This document shows, piece by piece, positions 46,114 to 61,433 of a stretch of 64,000 nucleotides of DNA. The position numbers and the translations under genes were made by a program. The notes under the pieces are model-generated. The model was not told the DNA's origin. It did not search any database and worked only from the letters and a program-made list of their open reading frames with translations. This DNA comes from an uncultured bacterium. Its GTDB lineage: Bacteria; Fidelibacterota; Marinisomatia; Marinisomatales; TCS56. Where the stretch lies: NCBI GenBank assembly GCA_964439935.1, contig CAYTPW010000009.1, positions 1,623-65,622 of the forward strand. The letters run 5' to 3'. Numbering within the stretch: position 1 is the first letter of the stretch; the number at the start of each line of letters is the position of its first letter.

Positions 46114-47289
46114 TTGAACCGAATATTTTTAACCGTCCTGTGCTTTGGAAATCTGATGAGTACAAGCCAGCTATTGGCTGCGGGTGAAAATATTACTAAA
46201 GCTAGTAATTGGGGGTATAGTTACAATGATTTACTTAACGATCTGCCAATTTGGAATGCCAGTCCCTGGGTAACTCTCGATTCGATCGGTGCCAGCGTTC
46301 AGGGAAGAGCATTGTGGGAGTTGACCATCACCGATACCCTGCCACACGATTCACCGCGTCGCACTATCTATATGCACGTTCGCACCCATCCCAATGAAGT
46401 ACAGTCATTCTGGGTTGCCAACGAATTTATCAATCTGCTTCTTTCTGATGATCCTTACGCTGCGTTTTTACGATCGCGATGCACTTTCTATATTATTCCC
46501 ATGTATAATCCCGATGGTGTCGAACTCGGCTTTCCCAGGGAAAATGCCAACGGAATAGATATTGAAAGCAACTGGGCCGATATTCCAATGCAACCAGAAC
46601 CAACGGCCTTGAAGCAGCGATTTACAGACCTGATGGCATCCGCCGCTCCGATAGAAATAGCACTAAATATGCATTCTGCGTACAGAGCCGCTGTTAGGTA
46701 TTTTGTCTATCACCATGAGAATGGAACATCATACGAGTATACTCAGCTGGAACAGCAATTCATTGGAGCAGTTCAATCATATTTTCCTACCGGGATCGCC
46801 CCCTGGTACCACACTGTTACCTGGACCAATTTTACTCCCGATTATTATCCCGAAAGCTGGTTCTGGCTGAACCACGGTAATTCTGTAATGGCTTTGACTT
46901 ACGAAGATATGAACAATGATCAGGCAGGCTTGTATGATTCCACTGCCTACGCTCTGCTTCATGGGATAGGTGACTATCTGGGATTGGTTCCCTCAACAAC
47001 TGTTGTTGAAGTAACTGATCATCCTCAAACATTCACTCTGAACCAAAATTATCCCAATCCATTTAATCCGATCACAACAATCAGTTATTATCTCATAAAA
47101 CCGGGATATGTTACCATGAATATATTAGACTTGAGAGGTCGTACAGTGGCAACTCCAGTAAATACATTCCAATCAGCTGGGAACAAACAAATACAGTGGA
47201 ACGGTGAACTGTATCCCACAGGAACATATTTCTACCAGCTAATAGTCGACGGACGGCAACAAACAGGGAAAATGACTATGCTAAAATAG
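46114..47289 (+). CDS. Secreted zinc carboxypeptidase (peptidase M14) with T9SS C-terminal sorting domain
   Basis: 391 aa with a TTG start and a signal peptide. Has an HPNE zinc motif, PMYNPDG and NMHSA. The C-terminus NYPNPFNPITTISYYL...GTYFYQL...KMTMLK matches the Por_Secre_tail pattern. Confidence 0.8.
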   Translation: MNRIFLTVLCFGNLMSTSQLLAAGENITKASNWGYSYNDLLNDLPIWNASPWVTLDSIGASVQGRALWELTITDTLPHDSPRRTIYMHVRTHPNEVQSFWVANEFINLLLSDDPYAAFLRSRCTFYIIPMYNPDGVELGFPRENANGIDIESNWADIPMQPEPTALKQRFTDLMASAAPIEIALNMHSAYRAAVRYFVYHHENGTSYEYTQLEQQFIGAVQSYFPTGIAPWYHTVTWTNFTPDYYPESWFWLNHGNSVMALTYEDMNNDQAGLYDSTAYALLHGIGDYLGLVPSTTVVEVTDHPQTFTLNQNYPNPFNPITTISYYLIKPGYVTMNILDLRGRTVATPVNTFQSAGNKQIQWNGELYPTGTYFYQLIVDGRQQTGKMTMLK

Positions 47290-47360
47290 CCCCTGTCAGT
47301 ATTAATTTCATAACCAGCCTGATCATTTAAGACTCTTATTAATCTTCAGGATTGCATGCG

Positions 47361-48617
47361 ATGACATCACATCCACTAATAAAGCTGATAGCCGATAAAA
47401 ATCTGTTGGGGAATCTAGCCGACGAATATGGCACTCCGACCTACATCTATTCGCAACCGCGCCTGCTCGACAATATTAACCGACTAGATAAAGCACTGCG
47501 GCAGAATTTTGATAAGTATCATATCTGCTATGCAGTTAAAGCAAACAGTAATCCTAATTTAATTGCGGTGATGAAGGCTCACCTGCCCAACCTGGGTGGA
47601 GATTGCGCAAGTCCTGGTGAGATCGAAGCAGCTTGGTTAGCCGGAATCAAATCGCAAGATTGTATTTACACTGGAAATTATGAATCGCCCGCAGATTTGC
47701 AGTACGCCCTGGATTCTCGCATTTGCATCAATCTGGATGATGTATCATCATTGGACCGTTTAGCGCGCCTAAAGCTACCGAAACGTCTGTCATTCCGGCT
47801 TAATCCCGGATTTGGTAGGGGCATGTTTAAACAGATCAATACGGGAGGTGAAAAGGCAAAATTCGGTGTTCCCCGACATGATATTATTAATGCTTATTCG
47901 AAAGCGTTGAATCTGGGAGTCAAACGTTTTGGGCTACAATGCATGACCGGATCCGGTATTTTGGATAAAGATTATTTTGCAAGCTTATTGACCGCAATCC
48001 TGGATTCCGCTAAAAATATCGATACAGAACTCGGCATTAAAATGGAATATATATCTATCGGGGGTGGGCTGGGAATTCCATATCAGGACAAAGATCAGCC
48101 CCTGCCAATTGATTACGTGATGAAGCAACTTGGTGAAGTTTTTTATCAATATTATGACCGGAAAGCAATCGATTGTCCAGCTCTATGGCTCGAGCCGGGT
48201 AAGTATATTGTTGGCGATAGTGGATTCGTATTATCAAGAGTAACCGGGATTAAAAAAGGGTACCGCACTTTTATTGGTTTGGATGCTGGGATGGAAACCA
48301 TCCTTAGACCGGCCCTCTACCAAGCATACCATAGATTTTTAAAGGTCGGTGATCCCGATGCCAATCCGGTTGGCAAAGTCGACTTTACCGGCCAGATTTG
48401 CGAAAATACAGACCGCCAGGCCATTGATCGGTCTTTCCCTTCTGTCGCAGAAGGAGATTTAATAGCGATTATGGATGCGGGAGCATATGGATTTGTAATG
48501 TCAATGAATTATAACTCACGTCCCCGGCCGTCGGAGGTTTTATTGACTGAATCGGGATCCCAGTTAATTCGCCATCGTGAAATGATCGATGATATTTATG
48601 CTAAATGCATTTTATAA
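47361..48617 (+). CDS. lysA: Diaminopimelate decarboxylase (PLP-dependent, Orn/DAP/Arg decarboxylase family 2)
   Basis: LADEYGTPTYIY N-terminus, PLP lysine in YAVKAN, then GGGLGIPY, EPGKYIVG, CENTD and AGAYGFVMSMNYNSRPRP. ATG at 47361; the track uses the TTG at 47352. Confidence 0.85.
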   Translation: MTSHPLIKLIADKNLLGNLADEYGTPTYIYSQPRLLDNINRLDKALRQNFDKYHICYAVKANSNPNLIAVMKAHLPNLGGDCASPGEIEAAWLAGIKSQDCIYTGNYESPADLQYALDSRICINLDDVSSLDRLARLKLPKRLSFRLNPGFGRGMFKQINTGGEKAKFGVPRHDIINAYSKALNLGVKRFGLQCMTGSGILDKDYFASLLTAILDSAKNIDTELGIKMEYISIGGGLGIPYQDKDQPLPIDYVMKQLGEVFYQYYDRKAIDCPALWLEPGKYIVGDSGFVLSRVTGIKKGYRTFIGLDAGMETILRPALYQAYHRFLKVGDPDANPVGKVDFTGQICENTDRQAIDRSFPSVAEGDLIAIMDAGAYGFVMSMNYNSRPRPSEVLLTESGSQLIRHREMIDDIYAKCIL

Positions 48618-51048
48618 AAGATTAGTTGGCTTCCTGATCTTATTGGGCATAATAGTCGCCCAGGATCACCAATCGATCCATCAGGAGCAGGCTGAATATT
48701 ATCGGCAGAATTATCGTCACCCGGCTAAACCCGACGACAGTGGTCCTCTGCTACCCAAGCAATTGCGAACAACTGAACCAAGTCATACTGTATTCGGTTA
48801 TCACCCTTACTGGATGGGAACTGCCTGGCAGAATTATAATTACAATTTGCTTACTACTGTTGCTTGGTTCAGTGCCGAAGCAACCCCAACCGGGCAGTTG
48901 AGCGATCTGAACGGCTGGCCGGTAACCGGATTGATTAACCTGGCACATTCCCATGGAGTCGAGGTTGTACTTTGCGTGACCCTGTTTGATGACGCGGATC
49001 TGACCACACTACTGAGCAATCCTTCTTATCGCCAGAATTTGATCAATAATTTGATCGCACAGATTCAAGCCGGGAATGCGGATGGCGTCAATATTGATTT
49101 TGAAGATTTCCCCAGCTCGCAAGAAAATAGTATGGTCCAATTTATCAGCGATTTGACTGACGCATTCCATTCGCAAATCCCAGGATCGCAGGTTACACTA
49201 GCCACTCCTGCTGTGGATTGGAGTAATGAATGGGATTACAATGCTCTGGCGGCTGCCAGTGATGGCTTATTCATCATGGGCTATGGCTATCATTGGTCAG
49301 GCAGTGACTACACCGGTGCGATTGCTCCTTTAACCGGTGGATCTTACAATATTACCTGGACCGTAAATGATTATCTAACCAAGACGAATAATCAATCTGA
49401 TAAAATCATCCTGGGCCTACCCTATTATGGTCGCGAATGGGAAGCTGTAAGCGCCAGTCCCGGAGCAGCAACCCTCAGTTCTGGAGCGGTACGGTTATAT
49501 GATGCTGCCGAAGCACTGGCAATGACCTACGGCAGAATCTGGCACGGCAGTTCACAGACTCCCTATTATACCTATCAAAATCCCGGTTGGTACCAGGGCT
49601 GGTATGACGACAGTTTGTCATTATCCATAAAATACGATCTGGCGATCCAGAATGATCTTCAGGGTGTGGGAATGTGGGCATTGGGCTATGACGGTTCAAG
49701 TCCCAAATTATGGCAAGCGCTGGCAGATAAATTTGGTGGAGTATTACCACCCACGGAACCGCAGAATTTTACCATCAGTAATCTTGGGAATGGAACTGTT
49801 GAAATTGATTTTAGCGGCTCTAATTCGGCAGATAGTCTCACCATTCTGCGTCACTATCTAAATTCAAGTCAAATTGATATACTTGGCACATATGACCAGC
49901 ACCCGATTCTGGTCAATAGTTTAGCAACCACCGAGACCTATTTTATCAGCGTCGTTGCTTCAAACGCTGCTGGTGATAGCCCCGCGACCGAAATACTGGG
50001 TGTCAAACCAGATACTAATCTATCCAATGCGTTGATAATCAACGGTTTTGACCGCCAGTCCGGAACTACTAATCCCCGAAACTACTTTACTCAGCACGGA
50101 TCTGCACTAGGGCAAGCTGGAATCAGCTTCGATGGTGCCTGTAATGAAGCTGTTATTGAAGGATTGATCAACCTGAATGATTACACCGTGGTGGACTGGA
50201 TATTGGGTGAAGAAGGCGCTACAAACTCAACATTTACACTCGCAGAGCAAGCTCTAATCCAGGCCTATCTTGAACAAGGTGGACATCTTATGGTCTCAGG
50301 TTCCGAAATCGGCTATGACCTGGTTGACCAAGGTAATAGCCTGGATCAGGATTTCTATTCCAATTATCTTAAAGCAGAATATGTCACAGATGCCGCCGGT
50401 GGCCAATCTGGTGTTTATCAGGCCTGGGGAGTTTCAGGAAGCATTTTTGATGGTATCAATGCAATCAATTTTGACAACGGAACCCATGGAACTTATGATG
50501 TCGATTGGCCTGATGGCATTTTACCAATCGTTGGGGCACAAAATTGTGCCCGTTATACCTCTGTGGATTACGACGCTAAAGGTGGTACCGGAATAGTATA
50601 TAATGGTCCCTTCGGAACCAGTACGGCATACGGGGCTCTGGTTTATTTGGCGATCGGTTTTGAAGCTATATATCCGGAATCAAAGCGAAATGAGCTTATG
50701 TCGCGGATTACTGATTATTTTGATCAAGCGGAAGGTGGAACAATCAATCCCCCTGAAATACCAGTCGAATTTGGAATCACCTCAATTTACCCAAATCCGA
50801 CTAATAGTACAGTCACGATTGAGTTTTCATTGGCCTTAAATGTCGCTCAACCGGTTGAAATTAGTATAATTGATATGCTGGGTCGCACAATTCAAACATT
50901 AGTTCTTACACAACAACAATTAACTAATAACCGAGTAAGCTGGAATGGATACTCTGCCAAAGGTTCTATTGCTCCGTCAGGGGTATATATTGCCTTGCTA
51001 AAATCCGGTTCAAAATCCGATATCAGTAAATTTACGGTATTAAAATGA
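48598..51048 (+). CDS. Secreted multidomain glycoside hydrolase family 18 protein with Fn3-like region, unknown domain and T9SS C-terminal domain
   Basis: Signal peptide. GH18 catalytic block ADGVNIDFEDF (DxxDxDxE). An Fn3-like segment (PPTEPQNFTISNLGNGTVEIDF), then an unassigned domain of about 250 aa. The C-terminus is YPNPTNSTVTIEFSL...GVYIALL...KFTVLK. The start is 48598 or 48589, overlapping the lysA end. Confidence 0.8.
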   Translation: MLNAFYKRLVGFLILLGIIVAQDHQSIHQEQAEYYRQNYRHPAKPDDSGPLLPKQLRTTEPSHTVFGYHPYWMGTAWQNYNYNLLTTVAWFSAEATPTGQLSDLNGWPVTGLINLAHSHGVEVVLCVTLFDDADLTTLLSNPSYRQNLINNLIAQIQAGNADGVNIDFEDFPSSQENSMVQFISDLTDAFHSQIPGSQVTLATPAVDWSNEWDYNALAAASDGLFIMGYGYHWSGSDYTGAIAPLTGGSYNITWTVNDYLTKTNNQSDKIILGLPYYGREWEAVSASPGAATLSSGAVRLYDAAEALAMTYGRIWHGSSQTPYYTYQNPGWYQGWYDDSLSLSIKYDLAIQNDLQGVGMWALGYDGSSPKLWQALADKFGGVLPPTEPQNFTISNLGNGTVEIDFSGSNSADSLTILRHYLNSSQIDILGTYDQHPILVNSLATTETYFISVVASNAAGDSPATEILGVKPDTNLSNALIINGFDRQSGTTNPRNYFTQHGSALGQAGISFDGACNEAVIEGLINLNDYTVVDWILGEEGATNSTFTLAEQALIQAYLEQGGHLMVSGSEIGYDLVDQGNSLDQDFYSNYLKAEYVTDAAGGQSGVYQAWGVSGSIFDGINAINFDNGTHGTYDVDWPDGILPIVGAQNCARYTSVDYDAKGGTGIVYNGPFGTSTAYGALVYLAIGFEAIYPESKRNELMSRITDYFDQAEGGTINPPEIPVEFGITSIYPNPTNSTVTIEFSLALNVAQPVEISIIDMLGRTIQTLVLTQQQLTNNRVSWNGYSAKGSIAPSGVYIALLKSGSKSDISKFTVLK

Positions 51049-52352
51049 AATCAATTACCATCCTGTTTGCAGTAGGAATTTGTGCTAGTTTCGTAATGGC
51101 TCAAAATCACCCCTCGATCCACCAGGAACAGGCACGGCAACACAAAGGGCAGATTAATCCACCAGCGGACAAAATTAATGTCCTGAATGGGATTGATGTT
51201 TTGCTGGAGCAGCAAGCTAACAGGTTGACTGGCAAGAATATCGCACTGGTGACAAATCATTCCGGGATTGACAAACAAGGTCAGCCCAATTATCAACGCT
51301 TAATGGAACTGGAACAAATCAACCTGCAGGTTATCTTTTCACCCGAGCATGGATTATTCGGAGAAGCCGCTGCAGGTGAAAAAGTGAAGTATGGAAAAGA
51401 TATTAAAGAATTACCTGAGGTAATAAGTCTATATGGGAAAATAAGGAAACCTACAGCGGAAATGCTCAATGGTATTGATCTTATTCTTTACGACATCCAG
51501 GATATTGGCGCACGTTTTTACACCTATATTTCTACGATGGGTCTGGTAATGGAGGCAGCCGGTGAATTGGGAATACCGATTTGGATTCTTGATCGACCTA
51601 ATCCGATTCGAGCAGATTTGGTGGAAGGACCTGTTTTGGATATCAATTATCAGTCTTTTGTTGGCTACTACCCGATTCCGATTCGTTATGGCTTAACGGC
51701 AGGAGAACTGGCACAGATGATCGTTGGTGAAAAATGGATAATCACAATTCCAGAACTTGAAGTAATTCCATTGCAGGATTGGACTCGCGATCGCTGGTTC
51801 GATGAAACTGACCTGCCCTGGATTAAACCATCTCCGAATATTACAGACCTCGAAACAGCGCTAATCTACCCTGGTATGTGTCTATTGGAAGCTACTAATG
51901 TCAGTGAAGGCCGGGGTACCTATCAACCATTTAAAAAGTTTGGTGCTCCCTGGATCGATGGCCACCGATTAGCACAATCGCTTAACAAACAACATTTGCC
52001 AGGCGTTATATTTAAACCGGTACAATTTATTCCCGTATCTATCCCCGGAATGTCAGGTAAGCCCAAGTACCAGGACTTAGCTTGTCAAGGAATCGAAATA
52101 GTGGTTACTAATCGAACGAAATATCGAAGTTTAATGGTGGGAATCAGCGTCCTGTCCACAATTCAATCACAGTATCCGGATGAATTAAAATTCCGGACGA
52201 ATAGCTTAAACCGATTATGGGGATCAGATTCACATCAGGCAACGATAAATTCATATCCCGAACAAACCGAATACATTGATTCCGGCCAGGTGGAATATCA
52301 TGAAATTGCAAAGAAATATCATATTTATTCCAATAGTTACAGAAATCCCTAG
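51045..52352 (+). CDS. namZ: DUF1343 / NamZ-type exo-beta-N-acetylmuramidase
   Basis: 435 aa with a signal peptide. GKNIALVTNHSGID, SLYGKIRKPTAEML..IDLILYDIQDIGARFYTYISTM and EGRGT closely follow my recollection of the B. subtilis YbbC/NamZ pattern. ATGA overlap with the GH18 stop. Confidence 0.8.
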   Translation: MKSITILFAVGICASFVMAQNHPSIHQEQARQHKGQINPPADKINVLNGIDVLLEQQANRLTGKNIALVTNHSGIDKQGQPNYQRLMELEQINLQVIFSPEHGLFGEAAAGEKVKYGKDIKELPEVISLYGKIRKPTAEMLNGIDLILYDIQDIGARFYTYISTMGLVMEAAGELGIPIWILDRPNPIRADLVEGPVLDINYQSFVGYYPIPIRYGLTAGELAQMIVGEKWIITIPELEVIPLQDWTRDRWFDETDLPWIKPSPNITDLETALIYPGMCLLEATNVSEGRGTYQPFKKFGAPWIDGHRLAQSLNKQHLPGVIFKPVQFIPVSIPGMSGKPKYQDLACQGIEIVVTNRTKYRSLMVGISVLSTIQSQYPDELKFRTNSLNRLWGSDSHQATINSYPEQTEYIDSGQVEYHEIAKKYHIYSNSYRNP

Positions 52353-52489
52353 ACAAATCTCAAATTAATCTGCCATCAAAATTAAGTGACCAAAACAAGT
52401 AACTTCCATTATGACCTCCATGTTGTATTTTCTGAAAGTTACTAATCCTATTCAAACTCGGATTCCACCGATTAAATCTTGTATTTAAT

Positions 52490-53932
52490 ATGAAATTATT
52501 GATCCGATTGCTTATCTTGTCTACTCTGCTTTTTATAGGTGGGTGTTCTCAGATTCCCCGAACGTACGCCGTCAAGGGTCACCCTATCCTGTCACATAAA
52601 ATTAAGTCTGCTATTGACGATTCGGGATTGGTAACTAATCTGGGAATCAATGTACTAGATCTGAGGAACGGAAAAACCCTGTATCAACTAAATTCCAACC
52701 ACCTGTTTACCCCGGCCAGTAATAATAAATTATATACCGCGGCGGCCGCACTCCATTACCTGGGACCGGATTATCGCTTCAGTACTACGGTCTGGACAGA
52801 TAGCAGTGGCATTACAAACGGTCGGGTCAACAAATTGATACTGAAAGGCGGTGGCGATCCTGATTTTTCCCTGACCAGTCTTGATTCTCTGGCGGGAGTC
52901 CTCAAGCAGGATATCACCGCCATCGATACATTAATTGTTGATAATTCCCGTCTCGATTCAATTCGTTTTGGTGAAGGTTGGATGTGGGATGAAGGTTCCT
53001 GGTGGTATGCTGCACAGATCGATGCCATGTCCCTGAATGACAACTGCATAGATATTGATATTGCTCCCGGAATCCTCGGTCAGGCACCGCAAATAACAAT
53101 CAATCCACCAACCAATTATGTGACCTTGAACAATCTTTCTCAGACCGTCGCCGATACGTTGGATTTACAATCCATGAAAATTGAGCGGCGCTGGTGGGAT
53201 TTCAGCAATACTATCGATATCACCGGTGATATACTATTTACCGAGGAACGAGACACTATTTACCGAAATATTGAATATCCGGCACGATTTGCCGGAAAAA
53301 CATTCAGCGAATCGTTGATCAGGCAGGGTATTTCGTTTGATGGACCGATAATTATCGAAACCATCCCACGTGGCACACAGCTGATTGCGGAACATATTTC
53401 AGATTCTCTTTTCGTGTCGTTAAGGAATTTCTTAAAAGAGAGTGATAACCTTACCGGTGAACTTCTGATCAAGACAATCGGCCGGGAAACCAGCGGTCAG
53501 CAGGGTAATTGGCAAAACGGTCTGCTGGCAGTAAAAACATTCTTAAATGATATAGCCGCTATCGACACCACCGAATTGAGGATGGTCGATGGTTCCGGCG
53601 TATCCCGGTATAACCTAACCAGACCCGACCAATTAGTAACGATTCTGGAATATGTTTTTAATCAATCCGGATTCAAGTCCGAATATCTGGCTTCCCTACC
53701 ATTGTCCGGAGTTGATGGCACCTTAGAAGAAAGAATGGAAAATGACCGAGCCAAAGGCCAGATTTTGGCTAAGACCGGGACCCTCTCCGGTGCAAGTTGT
53801 CTGTCCGGTTATGCTTTTACCAGTTCTGGAACACCGTTGGCATTTTCGATCATGATGAATGGATATGTGGGATCATCGGGACCTTATCGAAAACTTCAGG
53901 ACGATATCTGCACAATTTTGGCAACCTATTAA
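52490..53932 (+). CDS. dacB: D-alanyl-D-alanine carboxypeptidase/endopeptidase (PBP4, peptidase S13), lipoprotein
   Basis: 480 aa, lipobox FIGGC, SxxK (ASNNK), SxN (SDN) and KTG (AKTGT) motifs. Confidence 0.88.
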   Translation: MKLLIRLLILSTLLFIGGCSQIPRTYAVKGHPILSHKIKSAIDDSGLVTNLGINVLDLRNGKTLYQLNSNHLFTPASNNKLYTAAAALHYLGPDYRFSTTVWTDSSGITNGRVNKLILKGGGDPDFSLTSLDSLAGVLKQDITAIDTLIVDNSRLDSIRFGEGWMWDEGSWWYAAQIDAMSLNDNCIDIDIAPGILGQAPQITINPPTNYVTLNNLSQTVADTLDLQSMKIERRWWDFSNTIDITGDILFTEERDTIYRNIEYPARFAGKTFSESLIRQGISFDGPIIIETIPRGTQLIAEHISDSLFVSLRNFLKESDNLTGELLIKTIGRETSGQQGNWQNGLLAVKTFLNDIAAIDTTELRMVDGSGVSRYNLTRPDQLVTILEYVFNQSGFKSEYLASLPLSGVDGTLEERMENDRAKGQILAKTGTLSGASCLSGYAFTSSGTPLAFSIMMNGYVGSSGPYRKLQDDICTILATY

Positions 53933-53945
53933 GGGAGAAGAATAA

Positions 53946-54875
53946 ATGATAAAACCATTACGGTTAAAACCTGGTGGGACGATTGGCATTGTAAATCCGT
54001 GCTACTGGTTGAAAGAGGAATTCCTGACTAAAACAGTTAAAATTATGGAGGCACACGGGTATAAAATCCAGTTGGGCAAATCGCCCGGACTAAAGGACAA
54101 TCTATATGCCGGTACACCGCAAGAACGGGCCGATGATTTGATGAACATGTTCATAGATCCGGATATCGATGCTATAGTTTGTGCGCGTGGTGGTTATGGT
54201 GCTAACCGTGTTGAGCCGCTGCTGGATTACGATCTAATTCAAGCTAATCCCAAAATATTTATGGGATATAGCGACATCACTGTTTATCACACTTCAATCA
54301 CCCAAAATACAGGCTTAATCACTTTCCATGGCCCAATGCTGGTAACCCACAAAGATGAAGAGCTTGAATATAATTTTATCAATTTTGAATACGGTGTTGT
54401 TAATGGAGAGCCGTACACAATCACTCCACCGGACGACTTCCCGTCTCAGATTCTTAAGCCAGGTCAGGCTGAAGGTCCTTTGTGGGGTGGTAATATATCT
54501 CTACTGGTCAACCGGCTGGCAACTCACCGGCAACTGGATACTGATGGTGTAATCCTGTTCCTGGAGGATATTGACGAATACTTATATTCCTTCGATCGCA
54601 CAATGTACCATTTGCGGCAAACCGGAATGTTTGACAAAATCAACGGTCTTATCATCGGTGAAATGTATGAAATGAAAGATACTGAGACTCCGTTTGGCAA
54701 ATCAGTCGATCAAATCGTAATGGATGTCTGCGGCGATCTGGATATTCCGATCATTTCCAATTTTACCTGTGGTCATGGCCGCTACCAGGCTACATTACCA
54801 ATTTCAATCTCATCCCGGTTGCGAGCCGATGGTGCTATTCCGACGTTGGAAATTCTTGAATCACCCGTCAAATAA
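53946..54875 (+). CDS. ldcA: LD-carboxypeptidase (muramoyltetrapeptide carboxypeptidase, peptidase S66)
   Basis: 309 aa, PGGTIGIVNP, ARGGYGANR, GYSDIT (nucleophile Ser) and a C-terminal GH motif. No signal peptide. Confidence 0.88.
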   Translation: MIKPLRLKPGGTIGIVNPCYWLKEEFLTKTVKIMEAHGYKIQLGKSPGLKDNLYAGTPQERADDLMNMFIDPDIDAIVCARGGYGANRVEPLLDYDLIQANPKIFMGYSDITVYHTSITQNTGLITFHGPMLVTHKDEELEYNFINFEYGVVNGEPYTITPPDDFPSQILKPGQAEGPLWGGNISLLVNRLATHRQLDTDGVILFLEDIDEYLYSFDRTMYHLRQTGMFDKINGLIIGEMYEMKDTETPFGKSVDQIVMDVCGDLDIPIISNFTCGHGRYQATLPISISSRLRADGAIPTLEILESPVK

Positions 54876-54886
54876 AGGGAAATAAT

Positions 54887-55522
54887 ATGCTCAACTATAT
54901 CTGGTTCGGATTAATGATGATTGCAATCATCGTTGGAGTAATCAACGGTTCATTAACTGAAGTGACTAATGCTGCCGTGAATTCTGCCGCTGTGGCAGTG
55001 AAAATCGCATTAGGCCTGATTGGCATCATGGCCATGTGGTTGGGAATCATGAAAATTGCCGAAAAAGGCGGCCTGATTAAAATCCTTGCTCGTGGTATCA
55101 GGCCAGTGGCGCGTTTCCTGTTTCCTGAGATACCCGACGGTCATCCCGCTATTGGTGCCATGATGATGAATATCACCGCTAACTGGCTGGGGCTGGGTAA
55201 TGCCGCTACACCACTTGGGTTAAAAGCCATGGATCAATTACAGAGTTTGAATCCATCTGCTGATACAGCTACAAATTCCCAGATTACTTTCCTGGCAATC
55301 AATACCGCCAGCATTACCTTTATTCCAATGACAGTAATCGCGGTACGCGCCGAACTCGGTTCGGCAAATCCATTTGAAATTATCAGTACCGGAATCTTTG
55401 CTTCCACCTGTGCCTGTATCGCTGCCATCACTGCTTCACGTTTATTACAGAAATTGCCTTCTTCACGAGGTAGCGATCCCATGAAAAAAAATACGAATGA
55501 AAAGGTGGTGCAAAATGATTGA
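54887..55522 (+). CDS. spmA: Nucleoside-recognition (Gate) domain membrane protein, SpmA-like
   Basis: 211 aa polytopic protein. The N-terminus MLNYIWFGLMMIAIIVGVINGS resembles B. subtilis SpmA. Confidence 0.8.
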   Translation: MLNYIWFGLMMIAIIVGVINGSLTEVTNAAVNSAAVAVKIALGLIGIMAMWLGIMKIAEKGGLIKILARGIRPVARFLFPEIPDGHPAIGAMMMNITANWLGLGNAATPLGLKAMDQLQSLNPSADTATNSQITFLAINTASITFIPMTVIAVRAELGSANPFEIISTGIFASTCACIAAITASRLLQKLPSSRGSDPMKKNTNEKVVQND

Positions 55523-56099
55523 CACATTGGCTACTACCGCAGCAGCTGCTGTATCCGATCCCCTTTTCACAGTGATTATGAAAGGGATATCCAATCTGGC
55601 GATCCCGTTCCTGTTATTCGTTATTATTCTGGTGGGTTTCATTCGGAAGGTCAAGGTTTATGAGGTTTTTGTTGATGGAGCCAAAGAAGGTTTTGATGTT
55701 GCCATACGGATAATTCCCTATCTAGTGGCAATATTGGTAGCAATCGGCATGTTCCGCGCTTCCGGTGCGATGGACTGGCTGGTGGCAATCTTATCACCAG
55801 CTACAAATCTGATTGGAATGCCGGCCGAGACGTTGCCGGTGGCTCTGATGCGTCCACTGTCTGGTAGTGGTTCGCTCGGAATTGTAACTGAATTAATCAA
55901 CACTCACGGTCCGGATTCATTTATCGGTCGTCTGGCTTCGACTCTGTTTGGGAGTACTGAAACGACTTTCTATGTGCTGGCGGTGTATTTTGGGGCTGCT
56001 GGTATCCGAAAGAGCCGCCATGCCGTCGCTTCCGGATTGATCGGTGATTTCGTAGGTATAATGGCCGCTGTTTTCATTTGTCGAATCGTATTCAGCTAA
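55515..56099 (+). CDS. spmB: Nucleoside-recognition domain membrane protein, SpmB-like
   Basis: About 194 aa polytopic protein with MRPLSGSGSLG and STETTFYVLAVYFGA motifs. Start 55515, or 55497 in the track. Confidence 0.8.
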   Translation: MIDTLATTAAAAVSDPLFTVIMKGISNLAIPFLLFVIILVGFIRKVKVYEVFVDGAKEGFDVAIRIIPYLVAILVAIGMFRASGAMDWLVAILSPATNLIGMPAETLPVALMRPLSGSGSLGIVTELINTHGPDSFIGRLASTLFGSTETTFYVLAVYFGAAGIRKSRHAVASGLIGDFVGIMAAVFICRIVFS

Positions 56100-56168: not shown

Positions 56169-57326
56169 ATGGCAACCATTAGAGAAGTATTCGAAATATT
56201 ATTCCAAGTGTTTAAATATCCTGTGATAAACAGTGCTGCTCTACAGATTGAACTGGGGCAACTGATCCTGGGAGTATTTATCTTTCTGGTTGGTCTGAAA
56301 TTGATACGATTTTTAATTAACAGGTTGTTCTCACCCTATTTCTATAAGGGAATAAAAGATACTGAAACCAGAAGTTGGCTAAACGGTTTTACTACATTCC
56401 TGTTGATTATTGTTCTCAGCATCATTTCGTTGACGATAATTGGTTTCCCCTTTTCAATTTTCGGACAGGTCTGGCATCTAACTTTATTCACTATTAAAGA
56501 TAATTCCGTTAATATCGGCAATATTATACTGGGATTAATTTTACTATACCCCGGCATCAGAATTTCAAGATATTTCTCCGGTGAATTTCAGTCCCTGGTT
56601 CTGAAAAGGCTGCGCTTAGACTCGGGTACAAAAAAGTCGCTAGAAGCTTTCTTCCGTTACATATTATTCGCAATTGTCATATTATTTGTACTGACGATTG
56701 TCGGAATTCCCTTAACTGCATTCACATTGTTGGGCGGTGCTTTTGCGATTGGCATTGGCCTTGGAAGTCAAAACCTCGTCAATAATTTCCTTTCCGGTAT
56801 TGTATTAATGACCGAACGACCGTTGAAAATCGGTGATATTGTGGAATTAGAGAACAGGCGGGGAATTGTCGAACATATCGGGGGAAGATCAACCCGGATA
56901 AAAACATTCGAAAATGTTCGAATGGTGATTCCGAATAGCAAATTACTGGAAAATACGGTTATTAACTGGTCCCTCATCGACAGTGATCTAAGGCGCGAAG
57001 TTTCAGTTGGAGTGGCCTACGGTTCACCAGCCAGTACTGTTGGTAACATTCTGAAGCAGGCAGTCAGTGATATTCCGGACATAAAGCAATCACCGGAACC
57101 GGTAATTCTATTCGATAATTTCGGCGATGATGCACTGATATTCAGAATTTTATATTGGGTAGAGATCAGTAACACCCTGAATCCATTCGTAATTGACAGC
57201 GATCTAAGATATAAAATATATGAAATGCTAAACGCCGAGAATATAACTATTGCGTTTCCACAACGTGATATCCACCTGGACACGACAAGCCCTCTTGAAG
57301 TGTCGATGGTAAAACCTGCTGACTGA
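56169..57326 (+). CDS. Mechanosensitive ion channel, MscS family
   Basis: 385 aa with several N-terminal TM helices and the MscS core FLSGIVLMTERPLKIGDIVEL...GIVEHIGGRSTRIKTFEN. Confidence 0.88.
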   Translation: MATIREVFEILFQVFKYPVINSAALQIELGQLILGVFIFLVGLKLIRFLINRLFSPYFYKGIKDTETRSWLNGFTTFLLIIVLSIISLTIIGFPFSIFGQVWHLTLFTIKDNSVNIGNIILGLILLYPGIRISRYFSGEFQSLVLKRLRLDSGTKKSLEAFFRYILFAIVILFVLTIVGIPLTAFTLLGGAFAIGIGLGSQNLVNNFLSGIVLMTERPLKIGDIVELENRRGIVEHIGGRSTRIKTFENVRMVIPNSKLLENTVINWSLIDSDLRREVSVGVAYGSPASTVGNILKQAVSDIPDIKQSPEPVILFDNFGDDALIFRILYWVEISNTLNPFVIDSDLRYKIYEMLNAENITIAFPQRDIHLDTTSPLEVSMVKPAD

Positions 57327-57385: not shown

Positions 57386-58192
57386 TTATAACTCACATGG
57401 ATCTAAATTATCTTTTTCAATATCGCGGAAATACCTGACAGTTTCCATTTTCAATTCGGCTGTAGCATCAATATCGCCAACGATCATCGATTTAGGATGG
57501 AGCTGCAGTGCAGATGCTGTCCACATATGGTTAACGCCTTCTTCAATGATTTTATGCAGGGCGCGAGCTTTTCCATGACCACTGACGATCAGAATGACCT
57601 CCTCCGCATCGGTAACGGTGGCTACACCGACAGTTAAAGCCAGTTTGGGGACTTGATCGACATCATTGTTAAAGAACCGGGAGTTGGCGATTCTGGTGTC
57701 ATAAGTCAGTGTTTTAATCCTCGTCCGGGAATGGAGCGATGATCCGGGCTCATTGAAGGCAATATGACCATCGGGACCGATTCCCCCCAGAAATAGCTTA
57801 ATCCCACCACGGGCAGCAATCTTTTCTTCGAAACGCTGACATTCTTTTTCCAGGTCTTCGGCGTTACCGTCCAGTATATTGATATTCTCCAACGGCATGC
57901 CGATATGCTCAAATAAATTTTTCCGCATAAATGAATGGTAGCTTTCCGGGTGCCCATGCTCTATACCGACATATTCATCCATATTGAAAGTGACGACATT
58001 GTTAAAAGACACCTTTCCGGCTTTTACCAGTTTCACCAATTCTTTATAGGTTCCCACCGGTGATGAGCCGGTCGGCAAACCGAGCACAAATGGATTATCA
58101 GGTGTAGGATTGAAATCATTAATTGATTTTGCGATATAGTTTGCTACCCATTTACTAAGCGTGTTATAACTGTTTTGAATGATCAAACGCAT
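57386..58192 (-). CDS. nagB: Glucosamine-6-phosphate deaminase
   Basis: 268 aa, [17 protein letters not shown] and [16 protein letters not shown] motifs. Confidence 0.95.
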
Positions 58193-58212
58193 CTTAAACT
58201 CCGATCTTTTCC

Positions 58213-60222
58213 TTATATCCGGTCAATGATTCCCTGAGCACTGGCATATTTTTCTTCGACCTCATAACCCATTGCTTCCAATTGCTGGATAAATGTGTTG
58301 TTGGAATAATCTCCGCGGACCGCAGTAAAATCTTCATCCTGATTGCCATCAATACCGTATCCGATCCGGACATTACCTTCAAATTCTTTTTTAGAGTCAT
58401 TGGCCACCAGATTCAGATATTTCCGAGACGCCTTAAGCCAGAATTCCAGCATCTTTTTCAAATCTTCTTTGGTGGCCTCCGACAATTTCTTTCCCTGCTG
58501 TTTCGCATATACAGCCAGAAACCAGTTCCATTCATCAGTGCGATAGGCCGCATGAATTGCTTCAAATCCTTCCTGCAGTTGATCGAAATCAGCGATCTGC
58601 CCTGTTTCTATCGCAGTGAGCATTCGTTCCAGACGACTCTGGCGACAAAGCAGGCCATTTACATCGATCCATTCACCCTGCCCCTTTTCTCCGTCGGGGT
58701 TCGGCCGGCCGATTGATTCCGATGTTGCCTGATCGCCCAGTTCCTCGAGCCGACAGATCAATAAATCACCAAAATACATATCCAAAGCCATTTGATAATA
58801 ACGCCCGCAGGTTTTCAGCAGCAGGCGTTTGATGTGTATACCGTTATTGATGATCGAATCCTGACCCTTCACAGTTTTAGCATATAGTTCAGCCATGGCC
58901 TGCTGACCACGGAGCATCTTTTGGGCAGTATAAGGCGATAATACATCAAAAATGATCAGATCAAGCTTATCAGCGTTTTTACGCCGGTCACGTTTGGGCC
59001 ATTTCAGGCCATCGCGGAGGGTTCCAACCGTAAAATAATTCATACCTGGAATCAGGTAGGAATTCCCATCGATGATATCCAGATACGAGAATGGAAAATC
59101 GCTGGTATCAAAATTAGCGTAATGCTTTCCCATTATCGCGGAGAATGCTCCGACCTTTGCTGGCCACAATAAATAGGAGCCGGATCCGGTCTTGCAGCCC
59201 CGCTCCAAAATACCTTGATGAACCGGACCAAGCTTGTACATATGGTTGGATTGGTTGGTGGCGCTGCCAGCGTTGTAAAAAGAAAACAGGCCGGCAATCA
59301 GTAAAGTCGAACGATGATGGGTTACGGTATAGGGTCCACCCATTATAGAACAGACCTCCGAGTGAAAACCTTCACAGTTGGCAAATAAGGCGCTGTTCTC
59401 AGCTGAAAACTGTTTACCGATTTTGGCGCCTTCTCCGATCAAGCAGGAAGATAACATTGCCATATCGGTAACGGTGGCACCAGACTGGATGATAAAATTT
59501 TCAGCGATTACACCCTGACCGACATAACTATTGTGATCCGGCGAAGATACTACCGTTCCATTTTCCAATGATTGTACTCCGTCAAGAAAAGCACCATCGC
59601 CAACTAAAACATTACGAAGAGTTCCGCAATTCAGAATACGAACCTGATCACCGATTGCCGCCCAATCAGTCCGCAGTTTGTCGGCATATTTTCCAGCTAT
59701 TTCATCCAGCCGTTGGATCAGTTCGCTGCGCTGGCGATATTGGGTGTTCAGATACGCTGACTGAGCGCTGGTCCGGGCCGTAATTTTGATTTCCCTGCCA
59801 CCACCTTCGTTGATAACCTCAATCGAATGACCATTTCCAAATGCAGATTCACCATCACAGCTCACAGATCCGACATTTTCAATAATCACCGATCTGCCGA
59901 TAGTCAGATTAGATAACCAGCCTTTAACATTGGAAATATGGCAATTATCACCGATGTCTACATTATTAAACCGGCTGTTTAACAGTGCGGCCTGGCGCTG
60001 GATGCCGTCAAACACTTTTAAGTCCGCATCCAGTTGTCCGATTGACATACTACCCTGGAATTCACAGTTTATGACACGATCCAGTTTGGTTTTATCTGTG
60101 ATCAATATTCGATCCCAGTCAGCGGACCGGCAACCATTGCCCTTGAGAATCGCAATCTCGGCAGTGGTTAGCTGTCGATAATCCGGCTTCATAGCATAGC
60201 CTTCATTTGGTGATTTCCACAT
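58213..60222 (-). CDS. Uncharacterized beta-helix-like protein (tentatively DUF4954-like)
   Basis: 669 aa. The N-terminus [27 protein letters not shown] is followed by short V/I/L-G/N periodic repeats suggesting a left-handed beta-helix and a helical C-terminus. The DUF4954 assignment is from memory and unverified. An alternative start lies at 60192. Confidence 0.6.
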
Positions 60223-60970: not shown

Positions 60971-61019
60971 TTACCCCTTGCCCAAAGCCCAAACATTTGC
61001 TATCGAAACTAGGTTCAGC

Positions 61020-61262: not shown

Positions 61263-61433
61263 AAATTCCTCACTTAATTAATTATAGAAGATTGCTGTTT
61301 TAAAATATCGAGTTGATAGATATCCTCAGCAATCGCGGTTACCAGCAATTTGTCTGGCTTGCTGAAAAGTGACGGCGAAATAAAGTGCTTGATAAGGTTC
61401 ATTGGTTTTACGTGTAGTCATATCGATGTTAAC

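What the first reader, a model, noticed from the sequence alone, without database searches (positions are those of the whole stretch)
46114..56099. Peptidoglycan-harvesting locus: T9SS-secreted M14 and GH18 enzymes, NamZ, PBP4, LdcA, SpmAB, with lysA embedded
Eight consecutive plus-strand genes, several with overlapping or abutting ends (lysA/GH18 overlap; GH18/NamZ ATGA; spmA/spmB overlap), cover most steps of taking murein apart.

- **Glycan cleavage:** a GH18 enzyme with an intact DxxDxDxE motif and a DUF1343/NamZ-type exo-N-acetylmuramidase.
- **Peptide cleavage:** an M14 carboxypeptidase, a PBP4 DD-carboxy/endopeptidase and a cytoplasmic LD-carboxypeptidase.
- **Secretion:** M14 and GH18 carry T9SS C-terminal domains, so they should act outside the cell. 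This points to scavenging of foreign cell-wall material rather than only recycling of the cell's own wall.
- **lysA:** a full-length diaminopimelate decarboxylase sits between the two secreted enzymes. It would convert DAP released from stem peptides into lysine.

I am not aware of lysA being described as part of a murein catabolic operon.
Basis: partly seen in the sequence, partly recalled or inferred. Interest (0 to 1): 0.62.

Follow-up and report, generated by a model that had tools for sequence, protein, structure and literature searches.

The report
Cell-wall salvage operon led by lysA
In the abundant ocean bacteria called SAR406 (Marinimicrobia), the gene that makes lysine from the cell-wall amino acid DAP is the conserved first gene of an operon of enzymes that dismantle bacterial cell wall, which points to these bacteria feeding on other bacteria's walls.

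Summary
Eight co-directional genes at 46114-56099 encode M14+T9SS tail, LysA, GH18+T9SS tail, NamZ, PBP4, LdcA and SpmA/SpmB, with overlapping ends.

- The GH18 motif is DGVNIDFE (second Asp is Asn), not an intact DxxDxDxE.
- M14 is not a core member. It occurs only in the three closest relatives.

**Main result**
- The organism is a Marinimicrobia (SAR406/Fidelibacterota).
- I examined 74 species-representative genomes of that phylum with enough sequence downstream of lysA.
- In 55, this 810-aa GH18 follows lysA immediately, its start overlapping the lysA stop.
- In 7, NamZ follows directly.
- In 3, MpaA follows directly. MpaA is the amidase that frees DAP from murein tripeptide.
- PBP4, LdcA-SpmAB, GH20 and an AmiA-like amidase recur nearby. 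The upstream flank varies.

**Interpretation**
- lysA heads a phylum-conserved peptidoglycan-disassembly operon, most plausibly coupling released DAP to lysine.
- It looks like the ordinary housekeeping lysA, not a second copy.

**Not shown**
- GH18 substrate (peptidoglycan versus chitin)
- Co-transcription
- Whether a second lysA exists elsewhere in the genome

**Extras**
- An unannotated GATase1-like domain sits inside the GH18.
- An N-terminal SIHQxQ peptide is shared only by GH18 and NamZ.

The parts
42912..45761 (-). Divergent neighbour: an FAD-linked D-2-hydroxyacid dehydrogenase fused to 4Fe-4S and CCG domains. It is a candidate D-lactate dehydrogenase. This is context, not the core operon.
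   Evidence: Pfam FAD_binding_4, FAD-oxidase_C, Fer4 and CCG. Nearest solved chains are LctD lactate dehydrogenase and mitochondrial D-LDH. Below cutoff for YdiJ and GlcD. Same position in L003, L004 and L010. The D-lactate assignment is inference.
46114..47289 (+). Secreted M14 metallopeptidase with a T9SS type A C-terminal domain. It is an accessory gene specific to this lineage.
   Evidence: Pfam Peptidase_M14 at 2.2e-19 and Por_Secre_tail at 30.2 bits. Nearest PDB chains are bacterial CCP-like M14 (3l2n, 4b6z). Present only in L009-L011 among 80 related loci. Reads DIESNW where MpaA and 3l2n have DLNRNF/NLNREW.
47361..48617 (+). lysA, diaminopimelate decarboxylase. It is the conserved first gene of the unit. 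An alternative TTG start lies at 47352.
   Evidence: TIGR01048, 351.5 bits against a cutoff of 297.9. The 13 best PDB hits, and 16 of the 24 listed, are DAP decarboxylases; the others are BtrK-type and D-ornithine/D-lysine decarboxylases. The 418-aa form is on record and identical in SRR8146442. Orthologues at 54-83% identity occur in 80 Marinimicrobia species.
48589..51048 (+). Four-domain secreted glycosidase: signal peptide, SIHQxQ peptide, GH18 catalytic domain, Ig/FN3-like sandwich, GATase1-like domain and T9SS C-terminal domain. The likely start is 48598 (816-aa form).
   Evidence: Pfam. Homologues of about 810 aa keep the full architecture across the phylum. AlphaFold model has mean pLDDT 83.
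48673..48690 (+). SIHQEQ peptide just after the GH18 signal peptide.
   Evidence: Invariant His and near-invariant Ile and Gln in 27 homologues. The motif was found only in the GH18 and NamZ families among 944 ORFs of 80 loci.
49081..49104 (+). GH18 catalytic motif D-G-V-N-I-D-F-E.
   Evidence: D162, G163, N165, D167, F168 and E169 are invariant in alignment A2. The second Asp of the canonical motif is Asn.
50005..50745 (+). Unannotated domain with a class I glutamine-amidotransferase-like (ThuA/GIFT/GH42-M) fold.
   Evidence: No Pfam hit at E<=1. No PDB sequence hit. Domain model has pLDDT 85. Foldseek hits are the GH42 middle domain, STM3548, IFT52-N, GATase and ThuA, at E 1e-7 to 1e-4. The profile finds 3093 cluster representatives. 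It is fused elsewhere to Amidase_3, LysM or Peptidase_M1, or stands alone with a T9SS tail.
50785..51039 (+). T9SS type A C-terminal sorting domain of the GH18 protein.
   Evidence: PF18962 at 37.8 bits and TIGR04183 at 38 bits against a cutoff of 23. Listed for nearly all of the 120 homologues shown.
51045..52352 (+). NamZ (GH171) exo-beta-N-acetylmuramidase with a signal peptide. Its start overlaps the GH18 stop (ATGA).
   Evidence: NamZ_N at 1.3e-79 and NamZ_C at 1.5e-41. PDB 4k05 at 2.8e-73. Adjacent to GH18 in 37 of 39 long loci.
51114..51131 (+). SIHQEQ peptide just after the NamZ signal peptide.
   Evidence: The DNA of the two motif regions is also similar.
52490..53932 (+). PBP4-type (S13) DD-carboxypeptidase/endopeptidase, a predicted lipoprotein (LFIGGC).
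   Evidence: TIGR00666, 271 bits against a cutoff of 107.8. SNNK, SDN and KTG motifs are read from the sequence. Present in 24 of 39 long GH18-linked loci.
53946..54875 (+). LdcA-type (S66) LD-carboxypeptidase with no signal peptide (cytoplasmic).
   Evidence: Peptidase_S66 and S66C. Below the E. coli LdcA equivalog cutoff (143 against 378). Follows PBP4 in L008-L011, L039, L066, L071 and L086.
54887..55522 (+). SpmA-like Gate-domain membrane protein.
   Evidence: PF07670 Gate. Always paired with SpmB after LdcA.
55497..56099 (+). SpmB-like Gate-domain membrane protein. An alternative start at 55515 gives 194 aa.
   Evidence: PF07670 Gate. The gene call in L001 is 194 aa.
56169..57326 (+). MscS-family channel on the same strand. 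It is loosely linked and not core.
   Evidence: Pfam MS_channel domains. Present after SpmB only in L002, L008 and L009, with gaps of 222-411 nt.
57386..60970 (-). Convergent amino-sugar block: nagB, a DUF4954/DUF6819 protein and a GntR/UTRA regulator.
   Evidence: TIGR00502 nagB, 406.9 bits against a cutoff of 236.9. PF16314, PF20683, GntR and UTRA. nagB and the DUF4954 protein keep this position in L003, L004 and L010, and nagB also in L009; the GntR regulator is seen in L003 and L004.
61539..63860 (-). 773-aa protein with a NagB-like domain.
   Evidence: NF002557 (glucosamine-6-phosphate deaminase-like), 192 bits, below the cutoff of 384. This family recurs in 17 related loci.

Best explanation
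This is a phylum-conserved Marinimicrobia operon for taking peptidoglycan apart, headed by the cell's ordinary lysA.

**Proposed route (all steps inferred)**
1. The GH18 protein is exported by the type IX system. Outside the cell it cuts GlcNAc-beta-1,4-MurNAc bonds in wall debris from other bacteria. This leaves fragments with MurNAc at the non-reducing end.
2. NamZ, in the periplasm or lipid-anchored, removes that terminal MurNAc. PBP4 opens DD-cross-links and trims D-Ala.
3. In many relatives a GH20 hexosaminidase and an AmiA-like amidase complete the glycan and peptide separation.
4. Sugars go to the adjacent nagB block.
5. In the cytoplasm, LdcA shortens tetrapeptide to tripeptide. MpaA, which is adjacent to lysA in three species and at an unknown place in this genome, frees meso-DAP.
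6. LysA converts the meso-DAP to L-lysine.

**Why lysA is first**
Placing lysA first, with GH18 translationally coupled to it, ties lysine production to the supply of salvaged DAP.

**Shown versus inferred**
- Shown: gene identities, conserved order and overlaps, secretion tails, and intact catalytic motifs.
- Inferred: substrates, compartments, flux and co-transcription.
For: - **Gene identities:**
- **Organism:** Marinimicrobia.
- **Synteny downstream of lysA:** in 74 species-representative loci with at least 1.5 kb downstream, 55 have GH18 and 7 have NamZ immediately after lysA. The GH18 start is estimated to overlap the lysA stop by 16-34 nt in nearly all 55.
- **Further members:** 37 of 39 long loci add NamZ and 24 add PBP4.
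- **Upstream flank:** it differs between lineages.
- **MpaA:** an MpaA equivalog (240-256 bits against a cutoff of 157) lies directly after lysA in L023 and L039. The third member of that ORF family, L043, was not scanned itself; it lies 16 nt after lysA, and GH18 and namZ follow it.
- **Other recurrent neighbours:** AmiA-like amidase in 26 loci, GH20 in 12, and PorV-family proteins in 19.
- **T9SS tail:** conserved in GH18 homologues.
- **NamZ substrate fit:** NamZ needs a non-reducing MurNAc end, which endo-N-acetylglucosaminidases generate (PMC8054146).
- **GH18 subfamily hints:** the best sequence match in PDB is B. subtilis YdhD, and SleL is also hit. JGI names homologues 'YaaH'.
- **Cultured relative:** Fidelibacter multiformis requires exogenous muropeptides, cannot make DAP or lysine, and has lysine in its murein (PMC11652737).
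- **The GATase1-like domain elsewhere:** it also occurs fused to Amidase_3 and to LysM.
Against: - There is no biochemical or transcript evidence.
- GH18 homology does not separate peptidoglycan-active enzymes from chitinases. A nematode chitinase and many other chitinases score similarly. Earlier SAR406 studies read GH18 as chitin degradation (PMC5596340).
- The 80 loci are related genomes, so part of the conservation is shared ancestry.
- In 9 of 74 loci lysA has no peptidoglycan gene directly after it. In one of these it precedes thrC-thrB, an ordinary biosynthetic context.
- mpaA, murQ and a muropeptide importer were not found in this window.
- The LdcA match is below the E. coli equivalog cutoff.
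- The rest of the genome could not be read, so a complete DAP pathway, which would make salvage unnecessary, cannot be excluded.
Confidence: 0.6

Rival explanations
1. The operon recycles and remodels the cell's own wall. The enzymes turn over the cell's own murein during growth. lysA sits with them only because DAP is shared between wall synthesis and lysine synthesis. No foreign material is harvested.
For: - PBP4, LdcA and MpaA are classical recycling enzymes of Gram-negative bacteria (established knowledge of E. coli recycling).
- NamZ in B. subtilis serves turnover and recycling.
- dacB-spmA-spmB are linked in B. subtilis (own knowledge; the function of SpmAB is unknown).
- lysA is the housekeeping orthologue.
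Against: - The GH18 carries a conserved T9SS tail and so should leave the periplasm.
- In this lineage a second T9SS peptidase (M14) was added next to the operon.
- The cultured relative uses exogenous muropeptides.
- Own-wall recycling in known systems starts with lytic transglycosylases, and no such gene is in the cluster.
Confidence: 0.17
2. It is a chitin or GlcNAc-oligomer utilisation locus. GH18 would be a secreted chitinase feeding GH20 and nagB under a GntR regulator. The wall enzymes would be bystanders.
For: - The fold search ranks many true chitinases as high as SleL and YdhD.
- The third-best sequence hit is a nematode chitinase.
- GH20, nagB and a GntR/UTRA regulator are typical of chitin loci.
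- The SAR406 literature assigns GH18 to chitin.
Against: - The gene that most constantly follows GH18 is NamZ, which is specific for MurNAc.
- PBP4, LdcA, MpaA and the AmiA-like amidase have no role in chitin use.
- In seven or more species lysA-NamZ persists without GH18.
- The best sequence match is YdhD.
Confidence: 0.1
3. The lysA linkage is frozen synteny. The downstream genes are a peptidoglycan operon, but lysA is merely an upstream neighbour inherited from the phylum's ancestor, with no metabolic coupling.
For: - All loci come from one phylum.
- lysA is the ordinary orthologue and occurs without the cluster in some genomes.
- No regulatory element tying them together was found. There is no lysine riboswitch or other Rfam hit.
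Against: - The overlap of the lysA stop with the next start is kept down to 54% lysA identity, while the upstream flank is not conserved.
- The partner directly after lysA changes between GH18, NamZ and MpaA but stays a murein enzyme. MpaA's product is LysA's substrate.
Confidence: 0.13

Closest known systems
Bacillus subtilis murQ-murR-murP-amiE-nagZ-namZ muropeptide rescue operon (PMC8054146)
   Same: NamZ exo-muramidase is encoded together with secreted partners that strip GlcNAc and peptides. The wall is degraded outside the cytoplasm, and sugars and peptides are then taken up.
   Different: - It has no lysA, no GH18 endo-enzyme, no PBP4 or LdcA, and no type IX secretion.
- Here the MurNAc end would be generated by an endo-acting GH18 rather than by exo-NagZ.
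- murQ, murP and murR are not in this window.
Escherichia coli murein peptide recycling (LdcA, MpaA, Mpl) with lysA as a separate LysR-controlled gene (established knowledge)
   Same: It has the same chemistry for the stem peptide: tetrapeptide to tripeptide (LdcA), release of meso-DAP (MpaA), then DAP to lysine (LysA).
   Different: - In E. coli these genes are scattered and lysA is not linked to them.
- Here lysA is the first gene of the cluster, and in three species it abuts mpaA.
Spore-cortex GH18 N-acetylglucosaminidases SleL/YaaH and YdhD (PDB 4s3j, 4s3k, 3cz8)
   Same: It is the closest sequence relative in PDB. It is a GH18 barrel acting on murein glycan, and the second Asp of the motif is not conserved (YdhD reads GGVTIDFE).
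   Different: - Identity is only 20-25%, and true chitinases score about as well.
- There are no LysM domains.
- Instead there is an Ig-like domain, a GATase1-like domain and a T9SS tail.
Muropeptide dependence of Fidelibacter multiformis IA91, the only cultured member of the phylum (PMC11652737, and Katayama et al. 2024 cited there)
   Same: It is in the same phylum. It uses exogenous wall fragments for wall building, carbon and energy. D-lactate from MurNAc is oxidised. DAP and lysine are not self-made.
   Different: - That work concerns an anaerobic subsurface class that has lost wall synthesis. I could not read the primary paper.
- Whether it describes this lysA-GH18-namZ operon is unknown to me.
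- The window comes from a different, metagenomic lineage.
Tannerella forsythia MurNAc/peptidoglycan salvage with NamZ1 and NamZ2 (bioRxiv 10.1101/2021.12.02.470905, abstract)
   Same: It is an FCB-group bacterium that scavenges foreign peptidoglycan using NamZ-type exo-muramidases.
   Different: No lysA or GH18 linkage is mentioned in the abstract, which is all I read. I did not examine its gene neighbourhood.

Membership tests
Diaminopimelate decarboxylase LysA (TIGR01048) | Full-length match above the curated equivalog cutoff | tested here: met
   351.5 bits against a cutoff of 297.9, covering residues 12-418. The 13 best PDB hits are DAP decarboxylases.
Diaminopimelate decarboxylase LysA (TIGR01048) | PLP-lysine and active-site motifs (AVKAN, GGGxGI, EPGR/K, CEx(x)D) | tested here: met
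   YAVKANSNP, IGGGLGIPY, EPGKY and ICENTD were read from the sequence and are invariant in alignment A1.
Diaminopimelate decarboxylase LysA (TIGR01048) | Decarboxylates meso-DAP to L-lysine | not testable with these tools
   This needs an enzyme assay.
Glycoside hydrolase family 18 | Pfam GH18 match above the gathering score | tested here: met
   117.9 bits against 29.6. The model shows a TIM-barrel-like alternation of strands and helices.
Glycoside hydrolase family 18 | Canonical DxxDxDxE motif | tested here: not met
   The motif reads DGVNIDFE. The second Asp is Asn in all 27 homologues, and the D-x-E pair is kept. YdhD also lacks this Asp.
Peptidoglycan-active GH18 subgroup (SleL/YaaH, YdhD) | Closer to these than to chitinases | tested here: inconclusive
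   By sequence, YdhD is best (4.7e-22) and SleL scores 1e-13. A nematode chitinase scores 1.4e-16. Foldseek does not separate the groups.
GH171 NamZ exo-beta-N-acetylmuramidase | Both NamZ_N and NamZ_C domains above the gathering score | tested here: met
   266.8 and 143.1 bits. B. fragilis DUF1343 structure 4k05 at 2.8e-73.
T9SS type A cargo | C-terminal sorting domain above the curated cutoff | tested here: met
   TIGR04183 at 30.1 bits (M14) and 38 bits (GH18) against a cutoff of 23. PF18962 at 30.2 and 37.8 bits against 27.
T9SS type A cargo | Type IX machinery present in the organism | tested here: inconclusive
   No T9SS machinery gene turned up among the window ORFs of at least 150 aa that I scanned; five of them (30063-33498) were not scanned. 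PorV/PorQ-family genes lie near lysA in 19 related loci.
PBP4 / peptidase S13 (TIGR00666) | Equivalog-level match and the SxxK, SxN and KTG motifs | tested here: met
   271.4 bits against a cutoff of 107.8. SNNK, SDN and KTG were read from the sequence.
LD-carboxypeptidase LdcA (peptidase S66) | Both S66 domains | tested here: met
   128.6 and 103.6 bits.
LD-carboxypeptidase LdcA (peptidase S66) | E. coli LdcA equivalog cutoff (NF008424) | tested here: not met
   143.3 bits against a cutoff of 378. The assignment holds at family level only.
Murein tripeptide amidase MpaA (M14, NF007897) | The window M14 matches the MpaA equivalog | tested here: not met
   No MpaA hit for the window M14. It is 28% identical over 75 residues to the true MpaA of L039. 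The L023 and L039 genes pass the cutoff; L043 is assigned by family clustering only.
SpmA/SpmB | Paired Gate-domain membrane proteins | tested here: inconclusive
   Only the generic Gate domain is matched. The biochemical function of the family is unknown (PMC3533761).
Operon (single transcription unit) | Co-directional genes with overlapping or short gaps, no internal terminator, and conserved order | tested here: met
   The gaps of 62-71 nt before lysA and 137 nt before PBP4 could hold promoters.
Operon (single transcription unit) | One transcript | not testable with these tools
   This needs RNA data.

The most novel reading that the evidence does not exclude
Marine SAR406 would be dedicated consumers of other bacteria's cell walls.
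- A secreted GH18 of a new architecture (GH18 plus an unannotated GATase1-like module) and NamZ would be brought together by a shared N-terminal SIHQxQ docking peptide. Together they would strip wall debris.
- LysA would act as a salvage enzyme that turns foreign DAP into the cell's lysine, possibly including lysine for a Lys-type murein.
- Lysine supply in these cells would then be wired to wall scavenging rather than to the aspartate pathway.
Probability: 0.3. Interest if true: 0.8.

Novelty: new variant of a known kind. Interest (0 to 1): 0.66.

Why it matters
**Ecological relevance**
- From my own knowledge, peptidoglycan is a large, slowly degraded share of marine organic nitrogen, and SAR406 is among the most abundant deep-ocean bacteria.
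- A conserved, easily recognised operon would give a genetic marker for wall scavenging in this phylum.
- It extends the muropeptide dependence shown for the one cultured strain to the marine lineages.
- It corrects the habit of reading the SAR406 GH18 as a chitinase.

**Testable consequences**
- It offers the first case I know of in which lysA is wired into murein catabolism.
- That makes a concrete prediction: DAP from foreign walls ends up as lysine.

**New objects to study**
- A widespread secreted domain with no family name.
- A short peptide shared by two unrelated glycosidases.

Tried and rejected
- **Exact look-up of lysA:** the 421-aa TTG-start form is not on record. The 418-aa ATG form is.
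- **First genome scan:** the single lysA protein found nothing. An alignment was needed.
- **RNA elements:** Rfam found no lysine riboswitch or other element in the locus.
- **Promoter and terminator scan:** counts are at shuffle level and so uninformative. It showed only that there is no plus-strand terminator in the gaps.
- **GATase1-like domain as a peptidase or amidase:** I considered a Ser nucleophile in SGSE, by analogy with the S51 and S66 peptidases. The top fold matches are non-catalytic GH42-M, ThuA and IFT52 domains, and I had no coordinates to test a triad, so this stays open.
- **SIHQ peptide as an N-terminal copper/nickel (X-X-His) site:** rejected, because the third-position His is not conserved.
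- **Window M14 as MpaA:** rejected.
- **Primary paper on strain IA91:** not held in the library.
- **Second lysA or DAP pathway:** the rest of the genome could not be fetched to look for them.

Full report
**1. What is in the window**

| Coordinates | Gene product |
|---|---|
| 46114-47289 | M14 metallopeptidase with a type IX secretion (T9SS) C-terminal domain |
| 47361-48617 | LysA (TIGR01048, 351.5 bits, cutoff 297.9) |
| 48589-51048 | 819-aa GH18 protein with a T9SS domain |
| 51045-52352 | NamZ (both domains) |
| 52490-53932 | PBP4 (TIGR00666, 271 bits, cutoff 107.8; lipobox LFIGGC) |
| 53946-54875 | S66 LD-carboxypeptidase |
| 54887-55522 and 55497-56099 | Two Gate-domain proteins of SpmA/SpmB type |

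- The stated overlaps are real: lysA/GH18 20-29 nt, GH18/NamZ ATGA, and SpmA/SpmB.
- No plus-strand terminator-like site lies in any gap.
- One detail is wrong. The GH18 motif is DGVNIDFE, with Asn in place of the second Asp, and this is invariant in 27 homologues.

**2. Surroundings**

- A ninth gene on the same strand encodes an MscS channel.
- Convergent on the minus strand lie nagB (TIGR00502, 407 bits), a DUF4954/DUF6819 protein, a GntR/UTRA regulator and a 773-aa protein with a NagB-like domain.
- Divergent upstream lies a 949-aa FAD-linked D-2-hydroxyacid dehydrogenase fused to Fe-S and CCG domains.
  - Its nearest solved relatives are lactate dehydrogenase LctD and mitochondrial D-LDH.
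  - It could oxidise the D-lactate released from MurNAc. This is inference.
- The rest of the window that I scanned is housekeeping: pnp, ribF, truB, infB, nusA, gpsA, recA, recX, dnaX and SRP RNA. Five ORFs of 150-404 aa at 30063-33498 were not scanned.

**3. Organism**

- All close LysA and GH18 homologues that carry an organism name are called Marinimicrobia, Neomarinimicrobiota, Fidelibacterota or FCB group.
- The same sequence occurs in a Logan assembly of SRR8146442.

**4. Is the linkage conserved?**

A scan of one genome per GTDB species with a LysA alignment returned 80 Marinimicrobia loci, with LysA identity of 54-83%. I mapped the window's proteins onto them with tblastn and counted.

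Of 74 loci with at least 1.5 kb downstream of lysA:

| Gene directly after lysA | Loci |
|---|---|
| Full-length GH18 | 55 |
| NamZ | 7 |
| Neither | 12 |

- In nearly all of the 55 GH18 cases the inferred start overlaps the lysA stop by 16-34 nt.
- Of 39 GH18-linked loci with at least 6.5 kb of sequence, 37 continue with NamZ, 24 with PBP4 and 5 with LdcA-SpmA-SpmB.
- Gene tables from the protein collection show the same pattern in independent metagenomes.
- The upstream flank differs between lineages: FAD oxidase, PAP2, M24 peptidase and unrelated genes. The conserved unit therefore starts at lysA.
- M14 is present only in the three closest relatives, L009-L011.

**5. Wider neighbourhood**

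I clustered all 944 ORFs of the 80 loci into families and annotated the recurrent ones.

| Recurrent neighbour | Loci |
|---|---|
| AmiA-like (DUF1460) N-acetylmuramoyl-L-alanine amidase-like lipoprotein | 26 |
| Metallo-beta-lactamase-fold protein after PBP4 | 24 |
| PorV/PorQ-family T9SS protein | 19 |
| NagB-like 770-aa protein | 17 |
| Sodium:solute symporter | 17 |
| TonB-dependent receptor | 16 |
| GH20 hexosaminidase | 12 |

**6. The most telling variant**

- In L023 and L039 the gene directly after lysA passes the curated equivalog cutoff for MpaA, murein tripeptide amidase (240-256 bits, cutoff 157).
- The L043 gene belongs to the same ORF family and lies 16 nt after lysA. It was not scanned itself.
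- L043 reads lysA, this mpaA-family gene, GH18, namZ.
- L039 reads lysA-mpaA-(T9SS protein)-(GATase)-PBP4-LdcA-SpmA-SpmB.
- MpaA cleaves gamma-D-Glu-meso-DAP and releases free DAP, which is the substrate of LysA (established knowledge of E. coli recycling).
- So in 65 of 74 species the gene after lysA is a murein-degrading enzyme. When that gene is a peptidase, it is the one that feeds LysA.

**7. Is this a special lysA?**

Probably not.
- The same orthologous group is found in genomes where lysA is not followed by the cluster.
- In L084 it precedes thrC and thrB, an ordinary aspartate-family context.
- No second, unlinked copy appeared among the 80 loci. The one genome with two loci has the same cluster twice.
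- I could not read a whole genome, so a second copy is not excluded.

**8. The GH18 protein**

- About 810 aa with one architecture across the phylum.
- AlphaFold gives mean pLDDT 83. The order is signal peptide, a short helix, GH18 barrel, Ig-like sandwich, an alpha/beta domain and the T9SS domain.
- By sequence, the best PDB match is B. subtilis YdhD (4.7e-22). Next come a Desulfitobacterium GH18, a nematode chitinase (1.4e-16) and SleL/YaaH (1e-13).
- JGI calls several homologues 'spore germination protein YaaH'.
- Foldseek ranks chitinases and SleL/YdhD alike. Homology therefore does not settle the substrate.
- The case for peptidoglycan rests on context, above all on NamZ. NamZ acts only on non-reducing MurNAc ends, the ends left by endo-N-acetylglucosaminidases (PMC8054146).

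**9. The alpha/beta domain (residues 473-719)**

- It has no Pfam match at E<=1 and no PDB sequence match.
- Its own model (pLDDT 85) matches class I glutamine-amidotransferase-like folds: the GH42 middle domain, STM3548, IFT52 N-terminal domain, GATase subunits and ThuA.
- A profile of it finds 3093 cluster representatives in 1.84 billion proteins, 748 of them at E<=1e-30.
- Ten sampled proteins show it in these settings:
  - with Amidase_3 plus a T9SS tail
  - with LysM
  - with Peptidase_M1
  - with FN3
  - alone with a T9SS tail
- A paralogue with this domain but no GH18 lies next to lysA in L003, L004 and L010.
- Its role is open: binding, oligomerisation or catalysis.

**10. A shared peptide**

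- Right after their signal peptides, GH18 and NamZ both carry [S/G]-I-H-Q-x-Q. In the window these read QDHQSIHQEQA and QNHPSIHQEQA.
- The motif is kept whether NamZ has a type I signal or a lipobox.
- Its Ile, His and the following Gln are invariant or nearly so in 27 GH18 homologues.
- The loose pattern occurs in 55 of 105 ORFs of the family that holds GH18, which also gathers other T9SS-tailed proteins, and in 34 of 60 NamZ ORFs. It occurs in one of the remaining ORFs.
- It is found nowhere else in the window in an N-terminal position.
- I have no tested explanation. A common docking or tethering peptide is my guess.

**11. Literature**

- The only cultured member of the phylum, Fidelibacter multiformis, needs exogenous muropeptides for its wall, carbon and energy. 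It cannot make MurNAc, D-Ala, D-Glu, DAP or lysine, and it has lysine in its murein.
- The authors trace muropeptide reliance to the phylum's ancestor (PMC11652737). The primary paper was not available.
- SAR406 genome studies listed GH18 under chitin (PMC5596340).
- Full-text searches found no paper linking lysA to a murein catabolic operon.

**12. Verdict**

  - It is a peptidoglycan-dismantling locus.
  - Its first enzyme is secreted.
  - lysA is a conserved member.
- It needs these corrections:
  - M14 is accessory.
  - The GH18 motif is variant.
  - lysA leads the operon rather than sitting embedded in it.
  - lysA is the housekeeping orthologue.
- The best model is a salvage route in which LdcA and MpaA release DAP and LysA makes lysine from it, coupled to extracellular GH18 and periplasmic NamZ/PBP4 action.
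- Confidence is 0.6. Substrates, transcripts and fluxes are inferred.
- I rate it a new variant of known peptidoglycan recycling and salvage systems.

Noticed in passing
window 48673-48690 and 51114-51131; GH18 and NamZ genes of L008-L087: GH18 and NamZ, which are unrelated enzymes, share an N-terminal peptide [S/G]IHQxQ right after the signal peptide or lipobox. It is conserved across the phylum and was seen in only one of the other ORFs of the 80 loci, at a non-comparable position. In the window the underlying DNA is also similar (about 79% column identity over 84 columns).
   Followed up: partly
window 50005-50745: A 247-aa domain has no Pfam or PDB sequence match but a GATase1/ThuA/GIFT-like fold. 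Its profile finds 3093 cluster representatives. In other proteins it is fused to Amidase_3, LysM, Peptidase_M1 or FN3, or stands alone with a T9SS tail.
   Followed up: partly
L023:11220-11966, L039:11261-11962, L043:11270-11974: MpaA (murein tripeptide amidase, above the equivalog cutoff in L023 and L039) lies immediately downstream of lysA. The L043 gene is in the same ORF family but was not scanned itself; there GH18 and namZ follow it.
   Followed up: yes
L084:9983-13598: In one species the lysA orthologue is followed by thrC and thrB instead of wall enzymes. This is an ordinary amino-acid biosynthesis context.
   Followed up: partly
window 42912-45761 (minus strand): A 949-aa FAD oxidase fused to Fe-S and CCG domains lies divergent from the locus. 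It is closest to lactate and D-2-hydroxyacid dehydrogenases and is syntenic in L003, L004 and L010. It could handle D-lactate from MurNAc.
   Followed up: partly
window 46114-47289: The M14 peptidase reads DIESNW where relatives read DLNRNF or NLNREW. The Asn-Arg pair that binds the substrate's C-terminal carboxylate in M14 enzymes (own knowledge) is Glu-Ser here, which suggests altered specificity.
   Followed up: no
window 57386-63860 (minus strand): This amino-sugar block holds nagB, a 669-aa DUF4954/DUF6819 left-handed-helix protein of unknown function, a GntR/UTRA regulator and a 773-aa NagB-like protein. DUF4954 travels with nagB in the related loci L003, L004 and L010.
   Followed up: partly
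window 38106-42815 (minus strand): Two tandem proteins of about 750 aa carry only an N-terminal FecR domain. One or two FecR-domain proteins of similar size lie upstream of the FAD oxidase in L001, L003 and L004.
   Followed up: no
window 13300-18700: A low-GC stretch (0.36 at 14-16 kb, against about 0.44 elsewhere) begins next to tRNA-Leu (13252-13336). Its ORFs have no Pfam match or only weak coiled-coil matches. It may be an inserted element.
   Followed up: no
L015, L016, L035, L039, L067, L071, L073, L082 (for example L039:13348-14001): A stand-alone 217-aa class I glutamine amidotransferase-like protein recurs in eight loci, in several of them directly upstream of PBP4 on the same strand. 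It might hydrolyse gamma-glutamyl bonds of stem peptides.
   Followed up: no
L021, L023, L038, L050, L067, L082 downstream of lysA: Where GH18 and NamZ are absent, lysA is usually convergent with a PorV/PorQ-family gene. In most of these loci that gene is followed by an unannotated protein of about 1100 aa and then a TonB-dependent receptor.
   Followed up: partly
window 23153-26391: An AgcS-type sodium:alanine symporter and a PepE (S51) dipeptidase lie about 20 kb upstream. Either could take part in using wall-derived alanine or peptides, but nothing links them to the locus.
   Followed up: no
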